Of a stretch of DNA of 32,000 bases, positions 1,870 through 30,534 are shown in pieces. A program made the translations under genes and the position numbers. Numbering within the stretch: the first letter of the stretch is position 1; each line of letters starts with the position of its first letter. The notes beneath the pieces are model-generated. The model saw nothing but the letters and a program-made list of their open reading frames with translations, was not told the DNA's origin and did not search any database. This DNA comes from Candidatus Saccharimonadota bacterium (GTDB lineage: Archaea > Nanobdellota > Nanobdellia > Pacearchaeales > GW2011-AR1), in the NCBI GenBank assembly GCA_049511795.1, contig JBEKXS010000001.1, forward strand, positions 358,288 through 390,287, written 5' to 3'.

Positions 1870-1898
1870 GTTAAAAGTTAAGGAATCTTTCTTGATTT

Positions 1899-3733: not shown

Positions 3734-3736
3734 TTT

Positions 3737-3975: not shown

Positions 3976-3980
3976 GTAAA

Positions 3981-4553
3981 ATGGTCGATTATAAATGTGA
4001 AGATGTAACTCATCCTGAGACTGATCTCAAAATAGAAGTCTATGCTCCACAATGGTACAAAAGAGGGCACCATGATGATGTTTACTCTCAAAAAGTTATA
4101 GACTCAAAATTAACAGATGAATCTGACTATTTCAAACCTTACATTGAACATTTGATACAAGAGCTTTTAGCTGAACATAAAATAAAAAAAGCAGATCTTA
4201 TAATTATAATCCCAAGAAGTGGAGGAACTTTTTCTCCAACACTGGAAAAGCTTGGCAATTTTCTCGCATCAAAATTTGGAGGAACCTTTGACAAAATTAT
4301 AAGGAAAAAACCATCTGACAGAAAAAATATAAGCAGCAGCACATTTTCTGAAAGGTTGAAAAAATCAGAAGAAGAGTTCGCTCTAATCAGAAGAGTTGGG
4401 CCAGATGAGAAGACTATATGGATTTTAGATGATCAAAAAACGACTGGGAGCACATTATTAGTCTGTACACAACTTTTAAAAAAATCAAGAGATTGTGAAG
4501 TTTATTGTTTTGCTCTAAGCATAAATAGAAATGTAGAACTGTTTGGAGAATAA
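3981..4553 (+). CDS. ComF/ComFC-like phosphoribosyltransferase-fold protein
   Basis: PRTase PRPP-loop signature TIWILDDQKTTGSTLL near the C-terminus, preceded by DLIIIIPRSGG. This matches the ComFC arrangement (D.i..VP...R ... vlLvDDv.TTGaT). It lacks the N-terminal Cys4 finger of bacterial ComFC. Confidence 0.65.
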   Translation: MVDYKCEDVTHPETDLKIEVYAPQWYKRGHHDDVYSQKVIDSKLTDESDYFKPYIEHLIQELLAEHKIKKADLIIIIPRSGGTFSPTLEKLGNFLASKFGGTFDKIIRKKPSDRKNISSSTFSERLKKSEEEFALIRRVGPDEKTIWILDDQKTTGSTLLVCTQLLKKSRDCEVYCFALSINRNVELFGE

Positions 4554-4567
4554 AGAGGGGAGGGTTT

Positions 4568-5488: not shown

Positions 5489-5541
5489 ATAGCTATATAC
5501 TTATATAATAAGTAAATAACTTATGTTATTTTATATAGAAT

Positions 5542-13763: not shown

Positions 13764-13860
13764 AGCCTGTGGAGGGAGTTGAACCCTCGACCCCCGGTTA
13801 TTTTGGATTTTTATTGAAAAATCATACAAAACCGATGCTCTGCCACTGAGCTACACAGGC
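13764..13860 (-). tRNA. tRNA-Thr(UGU) with 25-nt intron at canonical position 37/38 (intron 13800-13824)
   Basis: Reverse complement folds as GCCTGTG/TA/GCTC-AGTGGCA-GAGC/A/TCGGT-TTTGTA|intron|A-ACCGG/GGGTC/GAGGG-TTCAACT-CCCTC/CACAGGC/T. The intron forms a bulge-helix-bulge motif (see findings). Confidence 0.9.
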
Positions 13861-15994: not shown

Positions 15995-16219
15995 ATGGCA
16001 TCGTATCCAGGAACATATCCCAAAAAAAGTGGTTCAGGATTTTTAGTTGTGATTTATCTATTGTTTGGTATATATTTCATCAATTATGCAATCCAGTTTG
16101 TTATTATACCTACAGTAGTTACTCAATTTGATAAGTGGATAATTCTTGTTGGAGGAGTTCTTCTTATTATAGGCGCAATAAACCAACTGCGATTAAACAG
16201 ATACACGAGAGGATATTAA
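15995..16219 (+). CDS. Small membrane protein (74 aa, two predicted TM helices)
   Basis: Hydrophobic stretches FLVVIYLLFGIYFINYAIQFVII and WIILVGGVLLIIGAI. TTTAAATA at 15966-15973 lies ~25 nt before the ATG. Confidence 0.5.
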   Translation: MASYPGTYPKKSGSGFLVVIYLLFGIYFINYAIQFVIIPTVVTQFDKWIILVGGVLLIIGAINQLRLNRYTRGY

Positions 16220-16309
16220 TTTTTCAGTCTTATTTGAAAATTTATTTCTATTTTAAGATATTTTATTCTAAGTAACTAACTTAGTAAATAACTAATTTAT
16301 TAAGAAACA

Positions 16310-16317
16310 TTTAAATA
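16310..16317 (+). promoter_or_regulatory. TATA box TTTAAATA (context GAAACATTTAAATA) for the 16354-25070 operon
   Basis: About 37 nt before the ATG at 16354, followed by SD AGGTGG (16344-16349). A similar AAACATTT(T)AAA context sits upstream of tfb and tRNA-Thr. Confidence 0.3.
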
Positions 16318-16353
16318 TGAGAAACCTTTTTTAGATTAAAATTAGGTGGAGCT

Positions 16354-16491
16354 ATGAAAAAATATTTACTTCTTGTAGAAGATGAAAAACTCTGGGAAAA
16401 ATTTAAGCAGAATATAAAAAAAGACCTTAATACAGAAATAATAGAACTTATCAGAAAAAAAATTGAAGAGGTGAAGAAGCATGAGAAATAA
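16354..16491 (+). CDS. 45-aa ribbon-helix-helix-like small protein (not in the supplied ORF track)
   Basis: MKKYLLLVEDEKLWEKFKQNIKKDLNTEIIELIRKKIEEVKKHEK: a beta-strand (YLLLV) followed by two helices, CopG/Arc-like size and pattern. SD AGGTGG 4 nt upstream. Overlaps the next gene's start by 11 nt. Confidence 0.45.
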   Translation: MKKYLLLVEDEKLWEKFKQNIKKDLNTEIIELIRKKIEEVKKHEK

Positions 16492-18310
16492 AAAGGGTCA
16501 GGTTACTATATTCATAATCATTGCAGTTGTCATTGTTGCTCTGGTTTTGGGTTATCTTTTGCTAAGAAACTCTATTGCACCACAGAGCATTCCAGGCGAC
16601 ATACAGCCAGTTTATGACAGTTTTGTTTCCTGTCTGCAAGACAACACCCAAACAGGAATTAGTGTTCTTGAAAGTCAAGGAGGTTACATAAACCTCCCTG
16701 CATTTGAGCCAGGAAATACATACATGCCATTTTCTTCACAGCTTAATTTTGCAGGAACTCAGATACCTTACTGGTATTATGTATCTGGGAATAACATACC
16801 AAAAACACAAATACCCTCTCTTAATGATATGCAAATCGCATTAAGTAGCTTTGTTTCCCAGAAAATAAGAAGCTGCGACTTGAGCTCTTACTATGACCAA
16901 GGTTTTGTTGTCAAAATGGGAAATCCAAGCAGCTCTGTCAATATAAAAAACAGCGAAGTTGATGTTAGTTTGTCAATGCCTCTTACAATACAAAAAGGAA
17001 ATGAGACAGCTGTTGTAAACACGCATAAAATTGTAGTTACATCTTCTTTAGGAGAATTATATAATTCTGCGCAAACTGTTTATAATGATGAACAAAAAAA
17101 TATGTTTTTGGAAAATTATACAATTGATGAGTTGAGAACTTATGCGCCCGTTGATGGAGTCCAAGTTACATGCGGACCTTTAATTTGGAATGCAAATGAT
17201 ATTTTTGACACATTGCAAAATGCAATAACAGCAAACACTCTTGAATTAAAATCAAATGGGGCTACAAATGACTACTTTGCATTGCATCTTCCTATAAATG
17301 ATAATGTTAGATTTTTGACTTCGCAAAACTGGTCAAATAGCTTTGAAGTTTCTCCAGCAGATGGACCAATATTAACTGCTTTGCCCGTAGGAAATCAACA
17401 AGGATTAGGCATTCTTGGATTCTGTTATGTCCCTTACCATTTTGTTTACAATATAAAATACCCTGTTTTGATACAAGTATACAACCAAAATGAAATTTTC
17501 CAGTTCCCATTTGCAGTTGTTATACAAGGAAACAATCCAAGACAGCCATTGCCAGGAACAGCAACATCTGAAACTCCTAATGATCTTTGCCAATATAATA
17601 ATACACAAATACAAGTTACGACAGTTGATAAAAATCTGAATCCAATAATAAACGCAACAGTTTCATATGAATGCATTCAGCAGGAATGTTCAATTGGTTC
17701 AACAGATATCTCTGGAAGCTTAAGTGCAAATTTCCCACAATGCGCTAATGGATATGTAATTGCAACAGCACCAGGATTTAAAGATACAAAATATCTTTTC
17801 TCAACAGTGCAGCAAGGTTCTTTAGAAATTATTATGGATAAAGTTTACCAAACAAACATCCAATTACTTGTTGATGGACAGCAATATACAGGCATAGCAA
17901 TGATAACATTTAGTTCAGACTCTTCAACACAAACACTTGCATGGCCTGACCAGAGAACAGTAAACTTAAGTGAAGGTAATGAAAATATAACTGTCCAAGT
18001 ATATAAGAACAGTTCAATAACAATACCTGCAACAACAACACAACAATGTGTGACTGTTCCAAATGGAATTTTGGGAATAATTGGATTGACAAGACAAGAT
18101 TGTTTTGAGGTAAAAGTCCCCCAGCAAATAATTTCAAATGCTCTTGCTGGAGGAGGAAATATAGAACAATATTTCCTTGAGACCGATTTGGCGCAAGGAA
18201 AAACTTTGCAGATAAATGCGCCAGGCTTGCCGACACCAACAACAATAGATGATGTTCAAAATAATTATAATTTATTTGACCAAAATCAATTAACTGTTAA
18301 TTTAGTATAA
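16481..18310 (+). CDS. Secreted/surface protein (609 aa) with archaeal class III (type IV pilin-like) signal peptide
   Basis: MRNKKG|QVTIFIIIAVVIVALVLGYLLL matches the [KR]G|Q + hydrophobic helix prepilin pattern (compare KKGQ in methanococcal pilins). Q/N/S/T-rich body with 10 Cys. A carboxypeptidase-regulatory-like beta-sandwich stretch: VTTVDKNLNPIINATVSYEC...GYVIATAPGFKD. SD GAGGTGA at 16468-16474. Confidence 0.75.
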   Translation: MRNKKGQVTIFIIIAVVIVALVLGYLLLRNSIAPQSIPGDIQPVYDSFVSCLQDNTQTGISVLESQGGYINLPAFEPGNTYMPFSSQLNFAGTQIPYWYYVSGNNIPKTQIPSLNDMQIALSSFVSQKIRSCDLSSYYDQGFVVKMGNPSSSVNIKNSEVDVSLSMPLTIQKGNETAVVNTHKIVVTSSLGELYNSAQTVYNDEQKNMFLENYTIDELRTYAPVDGVQVTCGPLIWNANDIFDTLQNAITANTLELKSNGATNDYFALHLPINDNVRFLTSQNWSNSFEVSPADGPILTALPVGNQQGLGILGFCYVPYHFVYNIKYPVLIQVYNQNEIFQFPFAVVIQGNNPRQPLPGTATSETPNDLCQYNNTQIQVTTVDKNLNPIINATVSYECIQQECSIGSTDISGSLSANFPQCANGYVIATAPGFKDTKYLFSTVQQGSLEIIMDKVYQTNIQLLVDGQQYTGIAMITFSSDSSTQTLAWPDQRTVNLSEGNENITVQVYKNSSITIPATTTQQCVTVPNGILGIIGLTRQDCFEVKVPQQIISNALAGGGNIEQYFLETDLAQGKTLQINAPGLPTPTTIDDVQNNYNLFDQNQLTVNLV

Positions 18311-18311
18311 A

Positions 18312-21300
18312 ATGAAGAAAAAAATGTCAAAGAAAGAGAGAATTTTAACTAGGAAGAACTTTAGCGCTATTCCAATAATTGGGCTATTTTTAATATTAAC
18401 ATTATTTTTTGTATCATTTGTTTCTGCACAAGGCTCTTATGTAAGGGCAGCACCTGCATACACTTATGGTCAGCAGACAAGCTCGTTCTTTGGATTGCAA
18501 AATTATCCGCAGATTGATCCTAACATGTGCAATAATAGACAAGATTTTATTTTACAAGTAGATCCTCTTGGCTGCACACCAAGTGTTGTTACAAGTGACC
18601 TTCTGGGACAGCAAAATGTTCCTGTATTTTGCCCTATTGTTGCAACACAATTAAATCCGCTTATGAGCGTAAATGCGATAAATAATATGATATTAACACA
18701 GCAGCCTGGAACAAGCTTTTCAAATAATATTGCTGGTGTAAATTATTTTCCTGCACAAGCTGCACTTGGTCAATATAACCCATCGATAACTTCTCAATAT
18801 CTGGGGAATATAGGATATGCAACAATAGTTTTAAGACAGCAGCCAAATGAATCTGCAATGCCTAGTTTTGTCCAAGGAAATATTACAGCGCAAATAAGCT
18901 ATAATATACAGAATGCATTTGGCGTGGGAAATGCAGCATATTATTTGCAAACATTAAATGACAGTGATTTTAATAATAATATAAATGCTTACAGTTTCTG
19001 GAACGGAAAAGGGTTTGTAAGACTGGATAGCGCTGATAATACAGGTGCAACTGTTTCTATTTATTCAGGAGTAAGCGGTGCTGCAAGCCAAAGTACTGCC
19101 AAACAAAAAATTGCTACACTAAATCTAAAACCAGGCGAAACCTCTTCTGATGTTTATCTTCCTGGATTTGGATTATGCATGGGAGGCTTGAAAGTGCAGT
19201 TAAACGACCTTGAAAATCCAGATACAGTTGCAAAAATTGTTGTTGATTCAAATGTTGTTGATTTGAAAGCAGGAGATTCATTCCTTGATGGAAAATGTAC
19301 TGTTAATACTATTACCAAATACGGAATTAATCAGAATGTGCAGATTTCTTGCAGTGAGGATCAACAACATAGTAGCTTTGCACTTGGCATAAATCCTAAA
19401 ATAAACCTTACAATTTCAAACCCAACTATGGGAACAGTAACAAGACCATACAGTGTAGGCGACCATTTATTTGATTTCCAGGACGGGTCAAAAACATATG
19501 GGGTTTATCTTGGGTTCATAGGCAACAACGGGAAAACTGGCTCAATAAATGATGCTTACCTTTGGCTTCTTACAGTTCCTTCTGATGTGAGCACTGAAAC
19601 ATCTTTGTCAAATGATGAAGTTGCTTCTATAGCTAGTCTTGACAGTCATTTAGTTACTCCAACTGTAGGACAGGGATTTTGGGGTGCAGCAATAACTATT
19701 GGAAGTGACCTTCTTAGAGGCGCAGGCCAGGGCATAAAAACAATTGTTACTGGAAAGGGCCTTACTCCTATTTCTTATTCAAGTTCTGGAACAAGTGTTG
19801 GTGGGACAAATATACAGATTCTTGGTTATGCAGGAGCTTATAATGCTGATATTTCCAAATTGCCAGGAAATGTATTTACGTCTTACACAAATGCAATGAA
19901 TGATTATCAGACAATTGTCCAAAATTATGGAGGAGAAACAAGTGCTACGGGTTCATCACAGACTACTTATGGAGAACAGGCACTTGAACAAGAAATAAAT
20001 CTTGCAGGAAGTTTCAACCAGAAAAAAACTGCGCTGCAACTTTGTCAGCAATATTCACAAAGTTATGGACCTGCTCCTGATAATATATGCAACGACCCTG
20101 TTCTTTTGTCAAGCACGTCTACATCTGAGCAGAGTGTTATTATTAATGGACAGACACATACAATTTCATTTGAAGGAATAACAGCACCAAGTTTTGATCA
20201 GTTTGGAGTAAAACTCACTATAGGATACCCAAATAATGGGGTTCCTATAACTGTTACGTTACAGAAAAATCAGATATATTATGTTAATGAAACAACAGGA
20301 GAATATATACAGCTTACTGATTTAACTCCTACATCTGCAACTTTTACTACAAACTTAGTGCTTGCAGGAACAACATTGCAGAACATAAAGAATTTTGCAT
20401 CAAGCACAGGAAGCCATACACTTAAAGTTGGAACTCAGGATAATTTCGGAGGTGCTTATACATTTGCAATTCAACAGATAAATTTGCAACAGGTAGCAAA
20501 AGTTTCAATACAATCTGATATAAATTATGCACACTCAAATGCGAGCTTCAGTTTTAAGATTGGAATTGAAAAGAGCGCAATACAACTAACCCCAAACCAG
20601 ACAAAACAAAGAATTAGTGATTTAAACAAAACAATTAATCAATGGCAAAGTCTTCAGAACGATCTTAATACTGTTGTTAAGGTAGGAAAAACAGCATGCC
20701 TTATTACAGAAGTTGGACTACTTGCAAAAAACTTTGTTGCAAACCTCGGCGGTGCAGGAGTTGCAAGACAAGCTGTTATGAGAAATTCTGGAGGATGGGA
20801 TGACAAGTGTGCAGCTATGGTTAAGGCAGGGCAGTATACAAGTGTTGAAAATTGCCTTCAAGCAAATTCTGCTGCTGTCGATGCATCTGTAAATACATAT
20901 GATGCACAGGTTCAAGCTCAAAACCAAAATATACAGACTCTTAGCCAGGGACTTCCAACAACTACTGTTGCAGGAGAGAAAGTTGCAGATAGTGGGCAGC
21001 TTTTCAATAAGATAAATTCTTCTGTAATAACAGGCCTTTCAAACAACGCCAATGCAATATCTTCTAATGGACAGATAAAAGTTGGTAACCAAAATGTGAA
21101 TATTGCAGATGCAGCCCAAAGAATAAACTCTAACACAGCTACACTTTCACAGGTGGAACAGCTTCAATTAAACTTAGGATTAATAAATTCAAATGATCCT
21201 ACTGTAAAAGCTGTTGCGCAAAACCAAGTTCAAAACATTCTTGGGCAGATTTACAGCAATTCAAATCTTTATACTCAGCAAAATGATTTGACAAAACAAT

Positions 21301-24300
21301 ATGGTGCACAATTTGTCATAAGCAGTAATGAAAAACTTATAAACATCCCATTAAGCGGAGAAACATTCTCTCAATTACAAAATGTTAAAGGACTTTCTCT
21401 TCCTGGAACCACACCTGTTCAGCTTTATAGAGATCAAGTTACTGGCCAAAATTATCTTTTAGTTTTGAATAGCGCCAATGTTATAACACAAACATATCAA
21501 ATAGCAGGTGATGGAACATTGAGCATAGTTAATCAAAATATTGCAAATCCATTAAAGCTTAATCCTGTTACAGCTAATTCATTTAATAACAAATACTTGA
21601 ATCCAACCGTTCAATATTTTGAAACAGGACAGTATGCTGGATTGCCTGCAATTGTTCCATTTGATATCCAAAATGGTTGGTATGCCGCAATAAAATCAAA
21701 TCTTCCAAATATTCCAGTAGTTGGCACTACAGGTAATATAAATTCTTACGAATCTTCCACAAGAGTTTCAAGTTTTTTTATCTGCAATGTTGGTCAAAAT
21801 GGCAAAGAGGATAATATGGGTGTAGATGACAATTGTGAACAGTTCACTCCAGGTTCAAGCCAGCAGCCACCTCTTTTCTCAGGCGCTTTGACAGCAACAC
21901 AGTCCCAGGCATTAGAAACAAAAGCCATAAATGCAATCCAGCAGGCAACATCACAGAAAAAATCAGGCATTACTCAGATAGCAATAAATGGTGTAGGAAA
22001 GATAAATGTAGGCCAACCATCTGCAGGCACACCTGCTATACAATGTGAAGACTTTGAGTCTCCAAGTGATTGCAACATTTTGTTCAATGTTTGTGACCCT
22101 GTCATATGCCCTTCGAGCAGATGCAATTTAGGGGGTGCATATACTGTTCAGGACGTGATACAGTCAGGAATAATTGGGAGCCTTGCACTTTGCTATCCAA
22201 ATTTCCCACAAATAAAAATTCCAATTTGTTTGTCAGGAGTTAATGCTGGATTGCAAGGTTATATCAGTGTTTTAAAATCCTATCAACAATGCCTGCAAAC
22301 TAACCTAAATACAGGTCAACAAGTAGGAATCTGTGATGAAGTCAATAGTGTTTATCAATGCCAATTCTTTTGGAAGCAACTTATACCTGTTGTGAATTAT
22401 GCTCTTCCAAAAATAGCTGGAAATGTTTTAGGACAAAATTCAGGGACGGGTGGCGGAGAATATTTAGCAGGTACAGATGCTCTGACAAATGCACAGAAAT
22501 CAGTTGATTACTTCAGCCAATATTATGCTGCAAATTCATACAAAGCTTTCCAGGAAAGGTCAACAGAAAGTGTTGGAGATTCTGTTTGCCAGAACTTTAT
22601 GTCTCTTTCAACACCAAATGGAGGAAATCTTTTTGATGCGTTAATCACGCCTGATTCGCCTGTGCAATTCTATGGACAATTTAATGAAGCTCCTTATACA
22701 ACTGCAACAAATCCACCAACATCACAATACAATGTTTTCTATCATATTTATGCAGGAACAGATTTCCCTGCTTACTATCAGGTTTATCTGAAGGGTTCTG
22801 CAAGTTCATTTTATCAAGATACCGGAGTGAGCAGAGTTGTTGCAACAGGTGTAGTTCCTGTTGGGCAATTTATGACTAACACAAGTGTATTCACAGCCCC
22901 TTCTGGTTATCAGCAATTGTGCATTGTAGTTAATGGGCAAGAACAATGCGGCTTCAAACAGGTAACAACTGATTTTGGAGTTAATTATGTGCAGCAGCAA
23001 TATCTTTCTTCCCAAGCATCGCAGACAAATATAACCTCTCAAGCAAACTGTAACTCTGGAACACCAAGTCTTTATAGTTTATTAAATCCAAATGCACAAG
23101 CAGGTGTTACAAATGCTGCAAATCCTGCAATTTACAACCAGGGAATAATAAGAATATGTTCTACAAATAATCCAGCACAGGGAACAGACCCAAACTGGAA
23201 TACACCAAATGCAAGATGGCAGAAAGTTGGTTATTGTGATACACAAAATATTGGATGCTGGCTTGATACACAAAGCGTTTCAAATGTAATACAAAACCAA
23301 AATATTCTGAATGCAACATTACAACCAGTAACTTCACAATTTGTAAATGCTTTGCAGGCTCAAAATGGATTCTTTGATAATCAAGGATTCTCTTCTTATT
23401 TATTGTCTTTGGATACGTTGAGAGATCAACATCAGGATTCTCAGATAATATCATCAATAACACAAAATCTTTCAAAAGCTTCATTGAGTATTCAGAAAGC
23501 AGAGTTATATTTGAGAAGAGGGAATGCTTATGGTGATATATCACTTGCAGGAAATCCAAATGCGCCTTCTCCTCCTGTAAACCCAAATGCTAAACCAGAT
23601 GGTGCTAGCTGTGCTCAAGCCTCAGATTGTCAGTCAAATTATTGTGATCAGACTGCAAGTCCACCTACATGTTCTTCGCCAACTCTTCCAACAATAAATG
23701 TAAATTCTGGAACGAGTTTTGAATCACCAGTATTCCAATTCCATGATGGTACAGTATACATTAAATATGTAAGTGGGTCTTCTAACCTTTATTATAAATT
23801 CACAAATGGGCAATGGTACTGGTCTTCTGACCAAAATAATTGGTTTAATACTGTTGCAAGTCCAACAGAACAATCACAATCTGGTTTACCTGGCGCAACA
23901 CTTTCATCAACAAATCAATATTTCATTACAAATTTATTAAATAATTACGGAACTTCATATTCTGGAGGATTATCTCAGTTATTAAAAAGAACTACTGATA
24001 ATAAAGAGGGAGTTTTTGGCACTTCACTTACTACAGATAATGTACAATTTTCTAATGATGGAACTTTTACAGTTAATGGAATTCATATGTCACCTGGATC
24101 TTTCCCATTACAAACAAAATTCAGATTTTCATACACACAAAATCAATGGCAATGGTCCCCTGCGAGCGCTAATGACTGGACATCTGTATCTCAGTATGCA
24201 ATACAGGGAACAAGTGGGGATACATTTTCAGGCCAGTTAGCGAAAGGAGATGTTAATACTTTATTAAATGCTTTAAATGCTATGCAGGGCAGTGATGCTT

Positions 24301-25070
24301 ATGCACAAGGAGCCGCAGTAATTTTTAGTATAGATGCACCAAACTCAATAATCTCTTCTGGAACACAAACTGGAACAGGAAATACTGGAGGAAGTTCAAG
24401 TGGGACTACAGGAACAACTGGAACAGGAAATATTATTTCATGCACAGATCAGCAAAGTTGTCAAACTGCATTGCAACAAAGAGTTGGTTCAACTTCTATT
24501 ACATGTGTGAATACACTCGATTGCCAAAATAAATTATCAGAAAGAATACAAGGAGAAAAAATCCTTCAATTAGCAGAGCAAATTAAACAAAACTTTCCTG
24601 GCATTTCTGATTCAGATGTGCAAAGCCAGACTGGCGCACAATCATTTGAATGCCTTGCCTTGCAAATTTCAATGACAGAAAGCGGGATGCACCAATGTGC
24701 TTTATATTTTGACTCAAATGGAAACCCCCTGTATTGTGAAGGAAATCCGGATGAAGTTATTTTCAATGGGAATGGTAATGAAGGCAGTTTTGGAATAATG
24801 CAAATAAATTCAAAAGTTCATACAGATATATCAACTAGTGATTTAAGCTACTTGGATAAAGATGTAAACTATGGATTAAATCTTTTAATAAGTGGATATA
24901 ATGCACAATCAACAAACTTATACTCAACATGTATCCCAGGCCAAACTTATATAGGATGGAACAGGGCAATTAGAAATTATAATGGTTGGGGTTGCCAAAA
25001 TCCAGGGTATGTAGATTCTGTTGAGGGTGCAAGAAGTAAAGTTGGTTTGTTATTCCCTCAATGCGCTTAG
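18312..25070 (+). CDS. Giant (2252 aa) Cys-rich secreted protein with C-terminal lytic transglycosylase (SLT/lysozyme-like) domain
   Basis: Uninterrupted 6.76-kb ORF starting 1 nt after the previous stop. Sec-type signal FSAIPIIGLFLILTLFFVSFVSA|QG. About 44 Cys by my count. C-terminal SLT motifs TESGMHQC / GSFGIMQINSKVH / NYGLNLL / AIRNYNG. Confidence 0.9.
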   Translation: MKKKMSKKERILTRKNFSAIPIIGLFLILTLFFVSFVSAQGSYVRAAPAYTYGQQTSSFFGLQNYPQIDPNMCNNRQDFILQVDPLGCTPSVVTSDLLGQQNVPVFCPIVATQLNPLMSVNAINNMILTQQPGTSFSNNIAGVNYFPAQAALGQYNPSITSQYLGNIGYATIVLRQQPNESAMPSFVQGNITAQISYNIQNAFGVGNAAYYLQTLNDSDFNNNINAYSFWNGKGFVRLDSADNTGATVSIYSGVSGAASQSTAKQKIATLNLKPGETSSDVYLPGFGLCMGGLKVQLNDLENPDTVAKIVVDSNVVDLKAGDSFLDGKCTVNTITKYGINQNVQISCSEDQQHSSFALGINPKINLTISNPTMGTVTRPYSVGDHLFDFQDGSKTYGVYLGFIGNNGKTGSINDAYLWLLTVPSDVSTETSLSNDEVASIASLDSHLVTPTVGQGFWGAAITIGSDLLRGAGQGIKTIVTGKGLTPISYSSSGTSVGGTNIQILGYAGAYNADISKLPGNVFTSYTNAMNDYQTIVQNYGGETSATGSSQTTYGEQALEQEINLAGSFNQKKTALQLCQQYSQSYGPAPDNICNDPVLLSSTSTSEQSVIINGQTHTISFEGITAPSFDQFGVKLTIGYPNNGVPITVTLQKNQIYYVNETTGEYIQLTDLTPTSATFTTNLVLAGTTLQNIKNFASSTGSHTLKVGTQDNFGGAYTFAIQQINLQQVAKVSIQSDINYAHSNASFSFKIGIEKSAIQLTPNQTKQRISDLNKTINQWQSLQNDLNTVVKVGKTACLITEVGLLAKNFVANLGGAGVARQAVMRNSGGWDDKCAAMVKAGQYTSVENCLQANSAAVDASVNTYDAQVQAQNQNIQTLSQGLPTTTVAGEKVADSGQLFNKINSSVITGLSNNANAISSNGQIKVGNQNVNIADAAQRINSNTATLSQVEQLQLNLGLINSNDPTVKAVAQNQVQNILGQIYSNSNLYTQQNDLTKQYGAQFVISSNEKLINIPLSGETFSQLQNVKGLSLPGTTPVQLYRDQVTGQNYLLVLNSANVITQTYQIAGDGTLSIVNQNIANPLKLNPVTANSFNNKYLNPTVQYFETGQYAGLPAIVPFDIQNGWYAAIKSNLPNIPVVGTTGNINSYESSTRVSSFFICNVGQNGKEDNMGVDDNCEQFTPGSSQQPPLFSGALTATQSQALETKAINAIQQATSQKKSGITQIAINGVGKINVGQPSAGTPAIQCEDFESPSDCNILFNVCDPVICPSSRCNLGGAYTVQDVIQSGIIGSLALCYPNFPQIKIPICLSGVNAGLQGYISVLKSYQQCLQTNLNTGQQVGICDEVNSVYQCQFFWKQLIPVVNYALPKIAGNVLGQNSGTGGGEYLAGTDALTNAQKSVDYFSQYYAANSYKAFQERSTESVGDSVCQNFMSLSTPNGGNLFDALITPDSPVQFYGQFNEAPYTTATNPPTSQYNVFYHIYAGTDFPAYYQVYLKGSASSFYQDTGVSRVVATGVVPVGQFMTNTSVFTAPSGYQQLCIVVNGQEQCGFKQVTTDFGVNYVQQQYLSSQASQTNITSQANCNSGTPSLYSLLNPNAQAGVTNAANPAIYNQGIIRICSTNNPAQGTDPNWNTPNARWQKVGYCDTQNIGCWLDTQSVSNVIQNQNILNATLQPVTSQFVNALQAQNGFFDNQGFSSYLLSLDTLRDQHQDSQIISSITQNLSKASLSIQKAELYLRRGNAYGDISLAGNPNAPSPPVNPNAKPDGASCAQASDCQSNYCDQTASPPTCSSPTLPTINVNSGTSFESPVFQFHDGTVYIKYVSGSSNLYYKFTNGQWYWSSDQNNWFNTVASPTEQSQSGLPGATLSSTNQYFITNLLNNYGTSYSGGLSQLLKRTTDNKEGVFGTSLTTDNVQFSNDGTFTVNGIHMSPGSFPLQTKFRFSYTQNQWQWSPASANDWTSVSQYAIQGTSGDTFSGQLAKGDVNTLLNALNAMQGSDAYAQGAAVIFSIDAPNSIISSGTQTGTGNTGGSSSGTTGTTGTGNIISCTDQQSCQTALQQRVGSTSITCVNTLDCQNKLSERIQGEKILQLAEQIKQNFPGISDSDVQSQTGAQSFECLALQISMTESGMHQCALYFDSNGNPLYCEGNPDEVIFNGNGNEGSFGIMQINSKVHTDISTSDLSYLDKDVNYGLNLLISGYNAQSTNLYSTCIPGQTYIGWNRAIRNYNGWGCQNPGYVDSVEGARSKVGLLFPQCA
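24640..25067 (+). other. SLT (goose-type-lysozyme-like lytic transglycosylase) domain of the giant protein
   Basis: Catalytic-Glu context ISMTESG (gaa at 24678-24680, residue 2123), GIMQIN, NYGLNLLISGY, WNRAIRNYNGWG. Confidence 0.75.
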
Positions 25071-25098
25071 ATTAATTCTTGATTTAAATTTCTAAAGC

Positions 25099-25106
25099 TT
25101 TTTATA
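25099..25106 (+). promoter_or_regulatory. TATA box TTTTTATA with AAAGC upstream element, ~27 nt before tRNA-Leu
   Basis: CTAAAGCTTTTTATACA. The distance to the mature 5' end at 25130 fits archaeal -26/-27 TATA placement. Confidence 0.4.
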
Positions 25107-25129: not shown

Positions 25130-25213
25130 GCGGAGATGCCGGAGTGGTCAAACGGGTCAGGCTTAGGACCTGATAGCTTAGTGCTTACCTAGGTTCGAAT
25201 CCTAGTCTCCGCA
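25130..25213 (+). tRNA. tRNA-Leu(UAG), long variable arm
   Basis: GCGGAGA..TCAGG-CTTAGGA-CCTGA, variable arm TAGCTTAGTGCTTAC, CTAGG-TTCGAAT-CCTAG, TCTCCGC, discriminator A. Confidence 0.92.
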
Positions 25214-28306: not shown

Positions 28307-28705
28307 TTATTGAGTAAGGTCAAGGTAACCATTCACAAAAGATTTTTTAGGCTTTGATTCACTTAATCCTTTTGATGCAGATTTTTGTCTAAAATTTCTA
28401 AACTTATTTTCTATGTGTACTTTCCTAACTGCTTTGTAAAAATACCAAACTGCCAGGAATAGAAATATAGCAAGTATTAAAGTTAATGCATCTTCAATGT
28501 AAGGGACACTATCAATTATTTCAGTTGTAACAAAAATAATCACTATCCTTCTTATTATAAGAAACAAAATAGCAAGAATAATATAATTAAATGACATTGA
28601 GGCATCATCTTTAAGTTTTCTCTTTACCTCTAATGCCATGAGAATTATCAAAACATAAATGGAAAGAATGACTATATCTAAACCAATCAATAAATAATCT
28701 ATCAT
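28307..28705 (-). CDS. Polytopic membrane protein (132 aa, ~4 TM), last gene of the surface-protein operon
   Basis: Four hydrophobic segments and a basic C-terminal tail. Start lies 1 nt after the upstream gene's stop. Confidence 0.6.
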   Translation of the reverse strand: MIDYLLIGLDIVILSIYVLIILMALEVKRKLKDDASMSFNYIILAILFLIIRRIVIIFVTTEIIDSVPYIEDALTLILAIFLFLAVWYFYKAVRKVHIENKFRNFRQKSASKGLSESKPKKSFVNGYLDLTQ

Positions 28706-28706
28706 C

Positions 28707-30533
28707 TTATTTTCTTAAAAAGCTTTCCAAGCCTATTTTCTCCTCTTTTTTATACCCTTTTTTATGAGCTTTATTATGTCGTATAATATAATAAATTACT
28801 GCACCTAATATTATAATCAAAATAATTATAATTACTATATATATCTTTTCAGTATTTGTTACAATGCTTGATACAACTTGGAATGAATCTGTTGCGCTCG
28901 CAACTTTTCCAGCATAAGTTGTTTTTACATAAACCAGATAATTTCCGTAGTTTATATCACTTGGAGTCGTTATATCTTTGATAAAACTTGCCTGGGTTTC
29001 TAAAGCAACTGTTTCATTTTGGTCATATACATAATTTCCATTTGAATCTTTTATTATATACTCTACATTTATGTCTGTCCTCCCAGAAATACCAAGATTA
29101 AACATTGTTACCTGAACAAGGACATCATTCCCAGGTTCAATTATCTTGTATTTTGGTTGGATTACTGCTTTCACATCAAGTAATGCCCCTCTTGATTGAA
29201 TATTTAATCCTACCATAACATCTTTTTCAGTGCCGCCCGAGACTATTTTTATTTTACCCAGATACAAATCAGGATTTGTGTCATCTCTTGCAATAAAATC
29301 TATTAAAATTGTTTTGGATTCGCCAGGATTAAGAGAAAAGTTAGTTTCATTAATAATAGCTAAGTTATCAAGCTGATCAGAGCTTATCTGGAAGTATAAT
29401 GGTTTTGTATCTTGATTGTTTATTGTTATCTCTTCGGTATCTATGCTTCCCTGAACAATTGAGACTAATAATTGGCTTTTATCAATGCTAAATAAGTTTG
29501 ATGGAATAATTCCGCCACCCCCACCGCCACCTCCACCTCCTGAAACTACGATTGTTGTGCCACCTGATGGGGCTGTTAAATTTTCCTGTGTACTGTATAC
29601 ACTTAACCCTGTAACATTGAAAACAAGAGTCCCGTTATAATATGTCCCATTGCCGTTTGAAGTAACTGTGTAACTTATCTTAGTACATATTGAAGGAGGA
29701 CATATAGAACCATCTTTTAAAATTTGTGGATTTGAGAAATTTAAATTGTATAATGAAAGAGTTGCCGGTACATTTAAGTTGGGAAGTGCTGTTGAATTTA
29801 CATAAATACTATTTGAAGAAATGTTTGTGTAAGAATCCAAATCTACTTGGTTATCAGATGGAACCAAATCATTTGTCATATTTATAGGAGGACTGAAAGC
29901 AATTTTTCCAAAGTTAGTATTTTCCAAGATAACATTACTTAAATTCTGCAATTCCTCATAAGATGATTTGTTGAAATCTGTTGAGCTTCCTCTTGTTGAG
30001 CCAGAATAATTACTGTAATAAACTGTGAACTTGCTTGCATTGACAGTGAATGTTCTACTTATTAAAGAATTCCCGTTGCTGTTATTTGCGTATAAATAAA
30101 TTGTGTGCTGTCCAGATATAGTGTTAAACGTTGTGTTTCCTGCTAATGTTGTGTTTGAACCACTATCTAACTGATACCATACAAAATTTTGATTATTTAC
30201 TGCAAAATTTAAGGGTAGATTTGTCCCTGTAATGTATGTTCCATTAGTTGGTTTTATTATTAATAATGATGGCGGAAAACCAGCAGAGCTTGCAACTTGG
30301 AAAGAAAAACCATGAATTCCTTGATATAAGGTGTCAGAGAGGTAACCTATTGCTTGCTGATAAAAAGAAGCTGTGTTTCCACTATAATTATTGGTTGCTA
30401 TAATGTTTCCATCTGCACTTCCTTGAGTAAAATAACCAGAATAATCAGGAGAATTTATTTCTGTAGCAGAAACAAAAAAAATGAATATTATAAAAAACAG
30501 TCCTAAAATTATTGAAATAATTTTTTTTTTCAT
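28707..30533 (-). CDS. Surface-anchored N/S/T-rich protein (608 aa): signal peptide, Gly10 linker, C-terminal TM anchor
   Basis: N-terminal IISIILGLFFIIFIFFVSA. Many N-x-S/T sequons. GGGGGGGGGG linker. The C-terminal half has beta-sandwich-like repeats. The protein ends with IYIVIIIILIIILGAVIYYII followed by a basic tail. Confidence 0.8.
   Translation of the reverse strand: MKKKIISIILGLFFIIFIFFVSATEINSPDYSGYFTQGSADGNIIATNNYSGNTASFYQQAIGYLSDTLYQGIHGFSFQVASSAGFPPSLLIIKPTNGTYITGTNLPLNFAVNNQNFVWYQLDSGSNTTLAGNTTFNTISGQHTIYLYANNSNGNSLISRTFTVNASKFTVYYSNYSGSTRGSSTDFNKSSYEELQNLSNVILENTNFGKIAFSPPINMTNDLVPSDNQVDLDSYTNISSNSIYVNSTALPNLNVPATLSLYNLNFSNPQILKDGSICPPSICTKISYTVTSNGNGTYYNGTLVFNVTGLSVYSTQENLTAPSGGTTIVVSGGGGGGGGGGIIPSNLFSIDKSQLLVSIVQGSIDTEEITINNQDTKPLYFQISSDQLDNLAIINETNFSLNPGESKTILIDFIARDDTNPDLYLGKIKIVSGGTEKDVMVGLNIQSRGALLDVKAVIQPKYKIIEPGNDVLVQVTMFNLGISGRTDINVEYIIKDSNGNYVYDQNETVALETQASFIKDITTPSDINYGNYLVYVKTTYAGKVASATDSFQVVSSIVTNTEKIYIVIIIILIIILGAVIYYIIRHNKAHKKGYKKEEKIGLESFLRK
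29511..29540 (-). repeat. (GGN)10 simple repeat encoding Gly10
   Basis: Plus strand tccgccacccccaccgccacctccacctcc, a GC-rich island inside an AT-rich gene. Confidence 0.8.
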
Positions 30534-30534
30534 T

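What the first reader, a model, noticed from the sequence alone, without database searches (positions are those of the whole stretch)
16354..25070. Three-gene operon: RHH-like micro-ORF, pilin-signal protein and a 2252-aa Cys-rich giant with a murein-lytic C-terminus (candidate host-envelope attack/attachment system)
The three ORFs are physically coupled: an 11-nt overlap at 16481-16491 and a 1-nt gap at 18310/18312. They sit behind one TATA-like element. The two large products are compositionally foreign to the K/E/I-rich housekeeping proteins here: they are Q/N/S/T/G-rich with few charged residues. Both are exported, one by a class III (prepilin-type) signal and one by a Sec-type signal. The giant protein ends in a lytic-transglycosylase domain, an enzyme class that cleaves bacterial peptidoglycan glycan strands, which archaea do not make. 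A pilin-like adhesin plus a giant glycan-strand-cleaving exoprotein would fit an apparatus used by a small episymbiotic archaeon to attach to and locally open a partner's cell wall. Apart from the SLT domain and one beta-sandwich stretch, I recognise no known domain in roughly 2600 residues.
Basis: partly seen in the sequence, partly recalled or inferred. Interest (0 to 1): 0.8.

Follow-up and report, generated by a model that had tools for sequence, protein, structure and literature searches.

The report
Archaeal giant surface protein, swappable wall-cutter
This is a real three-gene operon of a tiny Pacearchaeota/Woesearchaeota-type archaeon whose giant exported protein ends in an enzyme that cuts bacterial cell walls; the protein family and the idea that it attacks bacterial hosts are already published, but its universal partner gene, its small regulator cassette and the free swapping of its enzyme tip appear not to have been described.

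Summary
The three ORFs (45, 609 and 2252 aa), the 11-nt overlap, the 1-nt gap, the signal sequences and the Q/N/S/T/G-rich composition are all present.

The C-terminal "SLT" domain fails Pfam and PDB sequence searches on the window's own sequence. A subfamily profile, a confident AlphaFold model and fold searches show it is a divergent GH23 (SLT/goose-lysozyme) domain.

[quoted passage not shown] The headline is therefore not new.

I did not find the following in the searchable literature:
- The 609-aa gene sits directly upstream of the giant in 80/80 loci, in a fixed housekeeping neighbourhood, and at least 561 species encode the giant.
- A ~1700-aa core is universal. The post-core tail is shuffled almost independently of core phylogeny (GH23, canonical SLT, VanY, amidases, M23, PT-HINT, an unknown Cys/His module).
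- The micro-ORF travels with a conserved operator-plus-BRE/TATA cassette.

The RHH label has no profile support, and the core fold remains unidentified. Best reading: a surface complex that presents exchangeable peptidoglycan-hydrolase warheads to bacteria.

The parts
16269..16301 (+). Operator-like array of TTACT/AGTAA half-sites. In the window it forms two 16-nt tandem units, TAAGTAACTAACTTAG and TAAATAACTAATTTAT, and directly abuts the promoter.
   Evidence: Direct repeat D1. The array is conserved in p1-containing loci. Half-sites average 3.5 per 50 nt against 0.13 in background. Consensus: ttacTtAcTtAcTaAcTaAcTaA.TAA.TaA.TTATT.
16302..16317 (+). Archaeal promoter: a BRE-like AAGAAACA followed by the TATA box TTTAAATA, 37 nt upstream of the p1 ATG.
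   Evidence: The sequence was read. The element AAGAAACATTTAWATA is present in 27/29 p1+ loci and in only 4/44 p1- loci, where the matches are weak. Promoter function is inferred from the archaeal BRE/TATA consensus (established knowledge).
16344..16349 (+). Shine-Dalgarno-like AGGTGG, 4 nt upstream of the p1 start codon.
   Evidence: Read directly from the sequence. Similar GGTG/GAGG motifs precede p1 in other loci.
16354..16491 (+). p1: a 45-aa, K/E-rich cytoplasmic micro-protein (MKKYLLLVEDEKLWEKFKQNIKKDLNTEIIELIRKKIEEVKKHEK). It is a candidate small DNA-binding regulator of the operon.
   Evidence: Homologs occur in 30/83 loci at 64-87% identity, always directly upstream of p2, with 18 invariant residues. 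The same 11-nt overlap with p2 occurs in 15 of the 30 p1+ loci. p1 co-occurs with the operator/promoter cassette. There is no RHH or other family hit.
16468..16474 (+). Shine-Dalgarno-like GAGGTGA for p2, embedded in the 3' end of p1 and 6 nt before the p2 ATG.
   Evidence: Read directly from the sequence. It is consistent with translational coupling across the conserved overlap.
16481..18310 (+). p2: a 609-aa exported protein with a class III (prepilin-type) signal/anchor. The predicted cleavage is KKG|Q after residue 6, and residues 7-28 are hydrophobic. It has 10 Cys and a beta-sandwich-like region at about aa 374-460. It is the universal partner of the giant.
   Evidence: The family gave more than 2265 hits among the 8000 candidates scored, 606-636 aa long and 52-67% identical over most of the list, with no Pfam domain. 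It lies directly upstream of p3 in 80/80 loci that have upstream sequence. A FlaFind-type motif is present in 90/120 members, and G-Q is near-invariant. It has a weak Big_1 hit only. The profile finds nothing in PDB.
18312..18428 (+). p3 Sec-type signal peptide (aa 1-39, predicted cleavage VSA|QG). Database entry P0001 starts at the second ATG (18324).
   Evidence: It is the only hydrophobic segment of p3. P0001 is 2248 aa and 100% identical. The cleavage site is inferred from the AXA rule.
18459..23546 (+). p3 conserved core (aa ~50-1745): a Cys-rich extracellular scaffold of unknown fold. Its most conserved part is aa ~1100-1660 (window 21609-23291).
   Evidence: The core is aligned in all 120 listed homologs. 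A search of 1.84 billion representatives found 1114 clusters at 50% identity, and all 150 listed hits have the same architecture or are fragments. There are no Pfam, NCBIfam, PDB or PHROG matches. The AF2 model is poor (pLDDT 58.8) and only a generic Ig-like sandwich is recognisable.
23679..24416 (+). p3 W-rich middle domain (aa ~1790-2035; two YYKF..QW.WS..W-type repeats). It is an optional tail module and a possible binding module.
   Evidence: It is found in 86/190 tails and 36/71 species-level tails, combined with either the GH23 or the Cys/His enzyme module. It has no Pfam hit. A binding role is inference only.
24495..25067 (+). p3 C-terminal divergent GH23 (SLT / goose-type-lysozyme-like) peptidoglycan glycan-strand-cleaving domain (aa ~2062-2252). 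The predicted catalytic residue is E2123 (24678-24680). Motifs are E2123-S2124, G2161-I-M-Q-I-N2166 and Y2223-N-G2225.
   Evidence: E, GxMQIN and YNG are invariant in a 36-member subfamily. The profile hits g-type lysozymes in PDB at E=7.5e-4. 14/36 members weakly hit PF01464. The profile hits Pfam-SLT-positive tails at 1e-11 to 1e-16. The AF2 model has pLDDT 91.9. Foldseek top hits are all lysozyme-superfamily or SLT proteins in PDB and BFVD.
25097..25105 (+). Oligo-T tract (GCTTTTTAT) downstream of the p3 stop. It is a candidate archaeal terminator and precedes tRNA-Leu (25130-25213).
   Evidence: Sequence and tRNA. Terminator function is inferred.

Best explanation
The locus is a vertically inherited operon that was found in every related Pacearchaeota/Woesearchaeota-type DPANN locus examined. 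It encodes a cell-surface complex directed at bacterial peptidoglycan.

Shown:
- One conserved BRE/TATA promoter precedes p1. p1, p2 and p3 are translationally coupled.
- p2 has a class III-type signal and a single N-terminal hydrophobic helix.
- p3 has a Sec-type signal, no membrane anchor, a ~1700-aa Cys-rich conserved core and a modular tail.
- In this genome the tail is a W-rich domain plus a divergent GH23 (SLT/goose-lysozyme) domain.
- In orthologs at the same chromosomal position the tail is replaced by canonical SLT, VanY, Amidase_2/3, M23, M10, PT-HINT or an unknown Cys/His module. Tail type is almost uncoupled from core phylogeny.

Inferred:
- p3 is secreted and held at the surface by p2, which stays in the membrane through its N-terminal helix after prepilin-peptidase processing, or is built into a pilus-like fibre.
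- The long disulfide-stabilised core projects the warhead. The warhead locally cleaves the MurNAc-GlcNAc strands of a bacterial partner's wall, allowing attachment, penetration or lysis.
- Recombination at the core/tail junction retargets the system to different wall chemotypes.
- p1, where present, binds the half-site array next to the promoter and regulates the operon.
For: Operon: the overlap, the gap and the SD-like sites are read from the sequence. The 11-nt overlap is conserved. The promoter/operator cassette is present in 27/29 p1+ loci against 4/44 p1- loci.

Universality and vertical descent: p2 lies directly upstream of p3 in 80/80 loci. The S3Ae-L44e and TFB-S8e-RNase Z flanks are conserved. 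At least 561 species-representative genomes encode the giant, and the family forms 1114 clusters at 50% identity.

Export. The composition is that of this genome's exported proteins.

GH23 warhead.

Murein specificity of the system: alternative tails include VanY (E=9e-31), Amidase_2 (5e-24), canonical SLT (7e-20), and M23 and Amidase_3 from precomputed annotations.

Swapping: Fitch parsimony gives 60 changes, against a minimum of 21 and a shuffled mean of 67.5. P0027 and P0049 are 76% identical over aa 1-1766 and then carry unrelated tails.

Fast, mosaic evolution of p3: relative to p2 and the housekeeping genes in the nearest relative.

The published hypothesis for the same family agrees (PMC8204110, PMC9723730).
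Against: - There is no experimental or expression evidence. Surface retention and a p2-p3 interaction are pure inference.
- The core fold is unidentified, so a scaffold role is assumed.
- The window's own GH23 sequence fails Pfam, and fold-search E-values and TM-scores are modest (0.08 and 0.42-0.55 against PDB; 1.2e-3 against BFVD).
- About 28% of species-level tails (20/71) match none of my three tail profiles (W-rich, divergent GH23, Cys/His). Pfam types some of these (for example L083 SLT, L079 Amidase_2 by clustering, L044 M10), and the rest have no assignable enzyme.
- M10 and PT-HINT tails are not murein-specific.
- No pilus-assembly ATPase or prepilin peptidase is in the window.
- No host of these archaea is known.
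- The extreme universality and housekeeping context would fit a structural envelope role equally well.
- p1 is absent from about 60% of loci, so regulation by p1 is not essential.
Confidence: 0.55

Rival explanations
1. Envelope reading. p2 (membrane anchor) and p3 (canopy) are the main cell-envelope or S-layer-like proteins of this clade, analogous in logic to SlaB/SlaA of Sulfolobales. The C-terminal hydrolase is a decoration on a primarily structural protein. This can coexist with the best explanation as an 'armed envelope'.
For: The pair was present at one fixed locus among ribosomal and transcription genes in all 80 loci that could be checked. The products are large, exported and Q/N/S/T-rich with N-glycosylation sequons. 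p2 is highly conserved and uniform in length. p3 has no anchor of its own.
Against: Profiles of p2 and p3 have no sequence similarity to any solved S-layer protein. The one core segment that was modelled (aa 1085-1745, low confidence) gave no such fold match. High Cys content and a strongly conserved core are, to my knowledge, atypical of S-layer proteins. Rampant swapping of catalytic tails points to a function directed at other organisms. No abundance data are available.
Confidence: 0.2
2. Diffusible weapon or scavenger. p3 is released into the medium as a bacteriolytic exoenzyme, an archaeal peptidoglycan hydrolase used to kill competitors or to harvest wall-derived sugars and amino acids. 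It does not serve contact-dependent attachment to a host. p2 is a secretion or processing helper.
For: p3 has a cleavable Sec-type signal and no anchor. Secreted archaeal PG hydrolases that kill bacteria are documented experimentally in Halogranum (PMC12352652). Peptidoglycan scavenging has been proposed for Pacearchaeota (PMC11537232). The polymorphic-toxin-like layout, including PT-HINT variants, fits antagonism.
Against: A 1700-aa conserved, disulfide-rich core is expensive and unnecessary for a diffusible enzyme. Strict pairing with a membrane-anchored partner suggests cell association. Genomes of this clade are thought to be host-dependent (PMC8204110).
Confidence: 0.17
3. Self-directed remodelling. 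The hydrolase cuts the archaeon's own murein- or pseudomurein-like wall to make room for a pilus or other trans-envelope machine, as specialised lytic transglycosylases (VirB1, FlgJ-type) do in bacteria.
For: The GH23 module is paired with a protein carrying a prepilin-type signal. In bacteria, dedicated lytic transglycosylases accompany type IV secretion and flagellar systems (established knowledge).
Against: Archaea normally lack murein (PMC8204110, PMC12352652). Alternative tails include VanY (D-Ala-D-Ala) and MurNAc-L-Ala amidases, whose substrates do not exist in pseudomurein (established knowledge). Swapping between unrelated hydrolase classes among close relatives makes no sense for a fixed self wall. 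No wall-synthesis genes are in the window.
Confidence: 0.04
4. Mobile-element origin. The giant is a phage or provirus tape-measure protein or virion-associated lysin, or belongs to another mobile element. Such proteins often carry C-terminal SLT or M23 domains.
For: BFVD fold hits include tape-measure and tail-lysin transglycosylase domains. Transposases and DNA methylases lie elsewhere in the window. The warhead modules themselves were probably acquired horizontally from bacteria or phages.
Against: p1, p2 and p3 have no PHROG hits. The locus is fixed between S3Ae/L44e and TFB/S8e across the 80 related loci examined. There are no phage structural genes nearby. p3 has a signal peptide and a Cys-rich core that is partly beta-structured in the (low-confidence) model, unlike helical tape measures.
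Confidence: 0.02

Closest known systems
[quoted passage not shown] 2021, PMC8204110, which cites earlier reports in Rinke 2013 and Castelle 2015; also PMC9723730, PMC10936187, PMC11537232)
   Same: It has the same lineage, the same size class (up to ~3000 aa), the same extracellular prediction, the same C-terminal GH23/SLT domain, and the same proposed role in binding or degrading bacterial walls. 22 of the 120 listed homologs carry a precomputed Pfam SLT hit, and some are named 'transglycosylase SLT domain-containing protein [Candidatus Pacearchaeota archaeon]'.
   Different: The papers describe the family by its SLT domain. Here the defining feature is the ~1700-aa core, which is present whether or not an SLT domain is there. 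The window's copy is a divergent GH23 subtype that Pfam misses. I did not find the p2 partner, the p1/operator cassette or the tail shuffling in the papers I could search. I could not access the fam00969 sequences to prove identity.
Bacterial polymorphic toxin systems (Rhs, CdiA, MafB and similar; PT-HINT pre-toxin domains)
   Same: A conserved N-terminal delivery or scaffold part carries a hypervariable, recombination-swapped C-terminal effector. A minority of orthologs carry a PT-HINT domain before the terminal module.
   Different: There is no sequence or fold relationship between the core and Rhs/YD, filamentous haemagglutinin or any known trafficking domain. The host is archaeal. Most typed effectors are wall hydrolases rather than nucleases or deaminases. 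No immunity gene follows the window's copy (tRNA-Leu follows). None would be needed if the producer lacks murein.
GH23 enzymes: family-1 lytic transglycosylases (Slt70, MltE) and goose-type lysozymes; phage SLT/LT_GEWL virion transglycosylases
   Same: The ES, GxMQ and YNG motifs, the lysozyme-like fold and the profile hit to g-type lysozymes are shared.
   Different: The domain scores below Pfam detection. It has a long N-terminal helix, eight Cys and insertions. TM-scores reach only 0.42-0.55. Whether it is a lytic transglycosylase (anhydro-MurNAc product) or a hydrolase cannot be told from sequence.
Secreted archaeal peptidoglycan hydrolases (Woldo and Danwoldo of Halogranum salarium; Strock et al. 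2025, PMC12352652)
   Same: These are archaeal, exported enzymes that target bacterial murein. That survey found PG-hydrolase homologs especially prominent and diverse in Nanoarchaeota.
   Different: Those are small modular enzymes (a catalytic domain plus known PG-binding domains, with Tat or Sec signals) acquired from bacteria. They are not giant lineage-specific scaffolds with a dedicated partner. That survey required a recognised wall-binding domain, which p3 lacks.
Archaeal class III signal-peptide proteins that are not pilins (for example the Sulfolobus bindosome sugar-binding proteins)
   Same: p2 has a short charged n-region, [KR]-G|Q and a hydrophobic helix, and is a large globular exported protein rather than a ~150-aa pilin. 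The comparison with the bindosome is from my own knowledge.
   Different: There is no sequence similarity to any known family. No assembly genes are nearby. Processing is untested.

Membership tests
GH23 / SLT (PF01464) lytic transglycosylase - goose-type lysozyme superfamily (p3 C-terminus) | Catalytic Glu in an E-S motif at the end of a helix | tested here: met
   E2123-S2124. E is invariant and S is at least 90% conserved in the 36-member subfamily alignment A1. It lies at the end of helix 55-67 of the model.
GH23 / SLT (PF01464) lytic transglycosylase - goose-type lysozyme superfamily (p3 C-terminus) | G-L/I-M-Q and A/x-Y-N-x-G signature motifs (motif definitions recalled from memory) | tested here: met
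   G2161-I-M-Q-I-N and Y2223-N-G2225. G, Y, N and G are invariant, and M, I and N are at least 90% conserved.
GH23 / SLT (PF01464) lytic transglycosylase - goose-type lysozyme superfamily (p3 C-terminus) | Significant match to the curated family profile | tested here: inconclusive
   The window's own sequence has no PF01464 hit, either whole or as an isolated domain at E<=10, and no PDB phmmer hit. 14/36 subfamily members hit PF01464 weakly (best 1.4e-4). The subfamily profile hits g-type lysozymes at 7.5e-4 and Pfam-SLT-positive paralogous tails at 1e-11 to 1e-16. Homology is therefore established transitively.
GH23 / SLT (PF01464) lytic transglycosylase - goose-type lysozyme superfamily (p3 C-terminus) | Lysozyme-like alpha/beta fold | tested here: met
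   The AF2 model has pLDDT 91.9 and pTM 0.90. PDB top hits are muramidases, g-type lysozymes, MltE and Slt70 (prob up to 0.98, TM 0.42-0.55). BFVD top hits are phage SLT/LT_GEWL proteins (prob 1.00, E 1.2e-3).
GH23 / SLT (PF01464) lytic transglycosylase - goose-type lysozyme superfamily (p3 C-terminus) | Cleaves the MurNAc-beta-1,4-GlcNAc bond of peptidoglycan | not testable with these tools
   This needs a biochemical assay.
fam00969 (Castelle 2021): large Pace-/Woesearchaeota murein-like LT proteins | A protein of up to ~3000 aa, specific to Pacearchaeota/Woesearchaeota, carrying a murein-like LT domain and predicted to be extracellular | tested here: met
   p3 is 2252 aa. Homologs are 1774-3779 aa and come from MAGs labelled Pacearchaeota, Woesearchaeota or Nanoarchaeota. 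The signal peptide is and the LT domain as above.
fam00969 (Castelle 2021): large Pace-/Woesearchaeota murein-like LT proteins | Sequence clusters with the published family members | not testable with these tools
Identity is inferred from the matching description.
Archaeal class III signal peptide / type IV pilin-like proteins (p2) | Short charged n-region, [KRDE][GA] cleavage motif, then a hydrophobic stretch (FlaFind-type pattern, recalled from memory) | tested here: met
   The N-terminus is MRNKKG|QVTIFIIIAVVIVALVL. 90/120 family members match the strict pattern with RGQ or KGQ, and the mean hydropathy of the next 22 residues is 2.74. In alignment A2, G6 is at least 90% conserved and Q7 is invariant.
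Archaeal class III signal peptide / type IV pilin-like proteins (p2) | Linked pilus-assembly genes (PilB/PilC-like ATPase and platform, prepilin peptidase) | tested here: not met
   None is among the annotated ORFs of the 32-kb window or the flanks of three relatives. The rest of the genome was not available.
Archaeal class III signal peptide / type IV pilin-like proteins (p2) | Small pilin-sized globular domain that assembles into a filament | tested here: not met
   p2 is 609 aa, and the family is uniformly 606-636 aa. Filament formation is not testable. It is better compared with non-pilin class III substrates.
Ribbon-helix-helix (CopG/Arc/MetJ) DNA-binding proteins (p1) | Profile or structural match to an RHH family | tested here: not met
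   None of the 24 family members hits any RHH Pfam family at E<=10. The profile against PDB gives only a de novo designed protein at E=0.029 and uL29.
Ribbon-helix-helix (CopG/Arc/MetJ) DNA-binding proteins (p1) | About 45 aa with a strand-helix-helix pattern and a cognate repeated or palindromic operator at its own promoter | tested here: inconclusive
   The size and residue pattern (YLLLV / EDEKLWEKFKQ / LNTEIIELIRKKI) resemble CopG and Arc from memory only. An operator-like half-site array co-occurs with p1 (27/29 against 4/44 loci). That supports DNA binding but not the fold.
Polymorphic toxin systems | Conserved N-terminal part with C-terminal effector domains exchanged between close relatives | tested here: met
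   60 Fitch changes against a minimum of 21 and a shuffled mean of 67.5; 76%-identical cores with unrelated tails.
Polymorphic toxin systems | Cognate immunity gene immediately downstream | tested here: not met
   In the window, p3 is followed by tRNA-Leu and then TFB. Small ORFs follow some variants (138 aa after the VanY type in L002; Fic after the PT-HINT type in L003), but these were not analysed.
S-layer proteins (e.g. SlaA/SlaB) | Sequence or fold similarity to a known S-layer family | tested here: not met
   Pfam, NCBIfam and PDB profile searches of p2 and p3 give nothing. The fold search of the one core segment modelled (aa 1085-1745, low confidence) finds only a generic Ig-like sandwich. 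Lattice formation is not testable.
Phage tape-measure proteins / virion-associated lysins | Phage protein family membership and phage gene context | tested here: not met
   There are no PHROG hits. The chromosomal housekeeping context is conserved across the 80 related loci examined.

The most novel reading that the evidence does not exclude
The p2-p3 pair is the universal host-contact machine of the Pacearchaeota/Woesearchaeota radiation. It is an archaeal-specific surface scaffold whose enzymatic tip is exchanged by recombination at a fixed junction (about aa 1745-1790). The tail type (GH23, VanY, amidase, M23, Cys/His module and others) then reports the cell-wall chemotype of each lineage's bacterial host. 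This would be an archaeal counterpart of polymorphic toxins or phage receptor-binding/lysin cassettes. It would give the first sequence-based handle for predicting the unknown hosts of this very large uncultured clade. The p1/operator cassette would be an add-on switch.
Probability: 0.3. Interest if true: 0.75.

Novelty: new member of a known kind. Interest (0 to 1): 0.45.

Why it matters
Pacearchaeota and Woesearchaeota are among the most widespread uncultured archaea, and their hosts are unknown. An archaeon has no use for a murein-specific enzyme on itself, so such an enzyme is some of the best genomic evidence that these archaea live on or off bacteria. That argument is already in the literature.

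This analysis adds that the enzyme sits on a scaffold-plus-partner system found in all 80 related loci examined, with the giant encoded in at least 561 species. The enzymatic tip is a freely exchanged cassette, and most of the typed tips are wall-directed.

If that holds, three things follow. Tail types could be used to predict host wall chemistry. p2/p3 become the obvious targets for localisation and pull-down experiments in enrichment cultures. The unannotated tail modules, for example the Cys/His module, are candidate new cell-wall hydrolases.

Tried and rejected
1. Direct Pfam, NCBIfam and PDB sequence searches of p1, p2, p3 and the isolated C-terminus gave no significant hits. A subfamily profile was needed.
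2. The 608-aa ORF at 28707-30533 (-) is not a paralog of p2.
3. Profiles of the whole p2 and p3 families found nothing in PDB.
4. AlphaFold of the most conserved core segment (aa 1085-1745, 23 sequences) gave low confidence (pLDDT 58.8). The fold search returned only generic Ig/Fn3-like sandwiches, so the core fold is unresolved.
5. An exhaustive profile search of 1.84 billion representatives for remote relatives of the core found only the same family.
6. RHH tests for p1 by Pfam on 24 members and by PDB profile were negative. I did not build an RHH reference alignment from memory for hhalign, because it would not be a verifiable test.
7. The Cys/His tail module looked like an NlpC/P60- or CHAP-type peptidase by eye, but it has no Pfam or PDB support. 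I report it as unknown.
8. My first single-linkage 'R0' tail cluster turned out to be heterogeneous. I re-split it around P0049.
9. Bacterial sigma-70 promoter and intrinsic-terminator scans were at chance level and are irrelevant for an archaeon.
10. A phage origin has no PHROG hits.
11. Makarova 2019 on archaeal polymorphic toxins could not be read because it is not held in the library.
12. I left the last homologous-protein search unused, judging that a search with the 45-aa p1 was unlikely to return annotation.

Full report
OBSERVATION

All are on the + strand, with an 11-nt overlap and a 1-nt gap. The window is archaeal. Its flanks encode SRP54, FtsY, GINS51, ribosomal proteins S3Ae and L44e, TFB and RNase Z, and S8e was identified through the syntenic loci. 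GC content is 28-39%.

The compositional contrast is real. p2 and p3 have 11-12% charged and 40-45% Q/N/S/T/G residues, against 31% and 24% for ten housekeeping proteins. p3 has 44 cysteines. A second cluster of exported proteins at 28307-31578 (- strand) has the same composition. It is therefore the signature of this organism's extracellular proteins, not of foreign DNA.

THE C-TERMINAL DOMAIN

Pfam and NCBIfam find nothing significant in any of the three proteins. The isolated C-terminal 176 aa hits neither PF01464 (E<=10) nor any PDB sequence. The domain is nevertheless real.

- The window's module belongs to a subfamily. In a 36-member alignment (A1), the columns E66, G104 and Y166-N167-G168 are invariant, and S67, M106, I108 and N109 are at least 90% conserved. 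These correspond to p3 E2123-S2124, G2161-x-M-Q-I-N and Y2223-N-G2225.
- The A1 profile hits goose-type lysozymes in PDB at E=7.5e-4.
- 14 of the 36 members hit PF01464 weakly.
- The profile hits the Pfam-SLT-positive tails of other family members at 1e-11 to 1e-16.
- An AlphaFold model built on A1 is confident (pLDDT 91.9, pTM 0.90).
- All its top Foldseek matches are lysozyme-superfamily enzymes. In PDB these are muramidases, g-type lysozymes, MltE and Slt70, with probability up to 0.98 and TM 0.42-0.55. In BFVD they are phage SLT/LT_GEWL transglycosylases, with probability 1.00 and best E of 1.2e-3.

I conclude that p3 ends in a divergent GH23 domain. Sequence cannot tell whether it acts as a lytic transglycosylase or as a hydrolase.

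THE FAMILY AND ITS ANATOMY

p3 has 212 significant homologs among the candidates scored. All 120 listed are 1774-3621 aa, and the taxonomic names that some sources give are mostly Pacearchaeota or Nanoarchaeota. P0001 is 100% identical but starts at the second ATG.

Residues ~50-1740 are aligned in essentially all 120 listed homologs, while everything after ~1750 is shared by only about 40%. The most conserved part is a Cys-rich region at ~1100-1660, which contains many invariant cysteines.

A profile of aa 1085-1745 was searched against 1.84 billion cluster representatives. It finds 1114 clusters (976 at E<=1e-30). In all 150 listed hits the domain sits at the same position in proteins of ~2000-3800 aa, or in fragments. 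The family is closed, with no relatives in other architectures visible.

A scan of GTDB species representatives finds at least 561 genomes that encode a relative. Almost all are labelled Pacearchaeota, Woesearchaeota or Nanoarchaeota.

The core has no match in Pfam, NCBIfam, PDB sequences or PHROGs. The AlphaFold model of aa 1085-1745 is poor (pLDDT 58.8). Only a generic Ig/Fn3-like sandwich is recognisable. The fold and function of the core are unresolved.

THE TAIL IS A SHUFFLED CASSETTE

I cut the tails after the core from 190 proteins (120 database proteins and 70 loci, with some overlap between the two sets).

- 93 carry the window-type divergent GH23 module. In 32 of these it is internal and followed by another module.
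- Pfam typing of 71 species-level tails gives canonical SLT in 16, VanY in 2, DUF1615 in 2, PT-HINT in 2, Amidase_2 in 1 and M10 in 1.
- Precomputed annotations add M23, Amidase_3 and others.
- A further module with an invariant Cys and His (alignment A7) occurs in 32 of 190 tails by BLAST with the P0049 module. It has no Pfam or PDB relative.
- A W-rich middle domain (p3 aa ~1790-2035) occurs in 36 of 71 species-level tails and combines with either enzyme.
- 20 of 71 tails match none of my three tail profiles. Pfam types a few of these, and the rest stay unannotated.

Tail class is nearly independent of core phylogeny. On a neighbour-joining tree of the core, Fitch parsimony needs 60 changes. 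The minimum is 21, and label shuffling gives a mean of 67.5 and a minimum of 62. P0027 and P0049 are 76% identical over aa 1-1766 and then carry unrelated tails.

Against the nearest relative (L018; TFB 99%, p2 85% identical), p3 is a rate mosaic. The N-terminal and Cys-rich core segments are 74-88% identical, interspersed segments are 42-56%, and the post-core region is 24-56%.

This is the logic of polymorphic toxins and of phage lysin or receptor cassettes. Most of the typed tips are enzymes that act on bacterial murein.

THE PARTNER AND THE OPERON

The p2 family gave more than 2265 hits among the 8000 candidates scored. It is uniform in length (606-636 aa) and more conserved than p3 (52-67% identity over most of the list). 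It has no Pfam domain, and its profile finds nothing in PDB.

Its N-terminus is a class III-type signal: a short charged n-region, a near-invariant [KR]-G-Q, then about 22 strongly hydrophobic residues. There is no other TM segment.

In all 80 loci that include upstream sequence, the p2 homolog lies directly upstream of the giant. The pair sits between S3Ae-L44e on one side and TFB-S8e-(LSm)-RNase Z on the other across the loci examined. This is a vertically inherited core locus, not an island.

No pilus-assembly genes are in the window.

THE MICRO-ORF

p1 is a real gene. Homologs occur in 30 of 83 loci, always directly upstream of p2. They are 64-87% identical, far more than the giant, and have 18 invariant residues. 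The same 11-nt overlap is present in 15 of the 30 p1+ loci, and an SD-like GAGGTGA for p2 is embedded in the 3' end of p1.

p1 is absent from the other loci, including the nearest relative.

Profile methods do not support the RHH label. None of 24 members hits an RHH Pfam family at E<=10, and a profile finds no RHH structure in PDB.

What does support a DNA-binding role is a cis-element that travels with p1. An array of TTACT/AGTAA half-sites averages 3.5 per 50 nt, against 0.13 in background. It directly abuts TTATT-AAGAAACATTTAWATA, which looks like BRE plus TATA, 34-65 nt upstream of the p1 start. This element is found in 27 of 29 p1+ loci and in 4 of 44 p1- loci, where the matches are weak. 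In the window the array is 16269-16301 and the promoter element is 16302-16317.

Non-coding DNA conserved across lineages whose giants are ~35-45% identical implies selection. I infer that p1 is a small regulator acting at this operator.

MECHANISM (BEST READING, CONFIDENCE 0.55)

Shown:
- One promoter and three coupled genes.
- A class III-signal partner.
- A Sec-exported, anchorless, Cys-rich giant.
- A GH23 tip in this genome, and exchangeable tips in orthologs, most of the typed ones murein-directed.

Inferred:
- p3 is held at the surface by p2.
- The core projects the tip.
- The tip cleaves the wall of a bacterial partner, for attachment, penetration or lysis.
- Recombination at the junction retargets the system.
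- p1 regulates the operon where it is present.

Rivals:
- An envelope or S-layer-like structural role (0.20). This is compatible with an 'armed envelope'.
- A diffusible bacteriolytic or scavenging exoenzyme (0.17).
- Self-wall remodelling (0.04). VanY and amidase tails and the absence of murein in archaea argue against it.
- A phage or mobile-element origin (0.02).

COMPARISON WITH WHAT IS KNOWN

The family is already described. Castelle et al. [quoted passage not shown] They propose that it attaches to or degrades bacterial walls, and they cite earlier sightings in Rinke 2013 and Castelle 2015. Vigneron 2022 (PMC9723730), PMC10936187 and PMC11537232 repeat the idea. Strock 2025 (PMC12352652) shows experimentally that other archaeal PG hydrolases kill bacteria, and notes that PG-hydrolase homologs are prominent in Nanoarchaeota.

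In the papers I could search, I did not find the universal core independent of SLT, the obligate p2 partner, the tail shuffling or the p1/operator cassette. I could not read Makarova 2019.

VERDICT

This is a real and correctly delimited operon. It is a new member, with a Pfam-invisible GH23 subtype, of a known and still uncharacterised family. Interest is moderate (0.45). The headline is published, but the system-level anatomy found here makes the question of these archaea's hosts more directly testable.

Noticed in passing
window 15995-16219 (+): A 74-aa small hydrophobic protein, probably a membrane protein, lies just upstream of the operon's promoter. It has homologs at the same position in 51/83 related loci (33-70% identity). 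It may be a fourth conserved neighbour of the p2-p3 pair, but it lies outside the p1 promoter.
   Followed up: partly
tails of P0049, P0028, L037, L012, L047 and others (alignment A7); not present in the window: A ~160-aa C-terminal module with an invariant Cys and His (C[FW]xS..VY ... GHxxIF ... HPVY) replaces the GH23 domain in 32/190 tails. It has no Pfam or PDB relative. It is a candidate new papain-like cell-wall amidase or peptidase.
   Followed up: partly
window 23679-24416 (p3 aa ~1790-2035): A W-rich two-repeat domain (YYKF..QW.WS..W) is present in about half of all tails and combines freely with different enzyme modules. It has no known family and may be a wall-binding module.
   Followed up: partly
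L003 14451-15446; L002 12914-13330; L001 12944-13660: The genes inserted between the giant and TFB differ by lineage. A Fic-domain gene follows the PT-HINT variant. A 138-aa ORF follows the VanY variant. LAGLIDADG homing-endonuclease-like genes are in L001. These could be immunity or accessory genes, or mobile insertions.
   Followed up: no
window 28307-31578 (-): A second cluster of three coupled ORFs (347, 608 and 132 aa) has the same low-charge, S/T/N/Q-rich composition as p2 and p3. The 608-aa protein has only a weak MG2 hit. It is not homologous to p2. It is probably another surface-protein operon.
   Followed up: partly
window 13764-13860 (-): Rfam calls a 97-nt tRNA here (58.5 bits) that ARAGORN does not report. 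It is probably an intron-containing archaeal tRNA.
   Followed up: no
window 56-6540: The 5' end of the window is a mobile and DNA-modification patch. It has two DDE transposases (56-790, 5542-6540), a C5 cytosine methylase (794-1759), an N4/N6 methylase (2598-3476, - strand) and DprA (4568-5488).
   Followed up: no
P0062, P0213, L073, L066 (database labels): Some family members are labelled 'Patescibacteria group bacterium', 'Bacillota bacterium', 'bacterium' or 'Diapherotrites'. L073 carries archaeal TFB and S8e next to the giant (TFB 92% identical to the window's), so at least that label is probably a binning or taxonomy error.
   Followed up: partly
window 18312 vs 18324: The public entry P0001 (100% identical) starts at the second ATG (M5), giving 2248 aa and a 13-nt gap after p2 instead of 1 nt. 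The true start is undetermined, and either keeps tight coupling.
   Followed up: no
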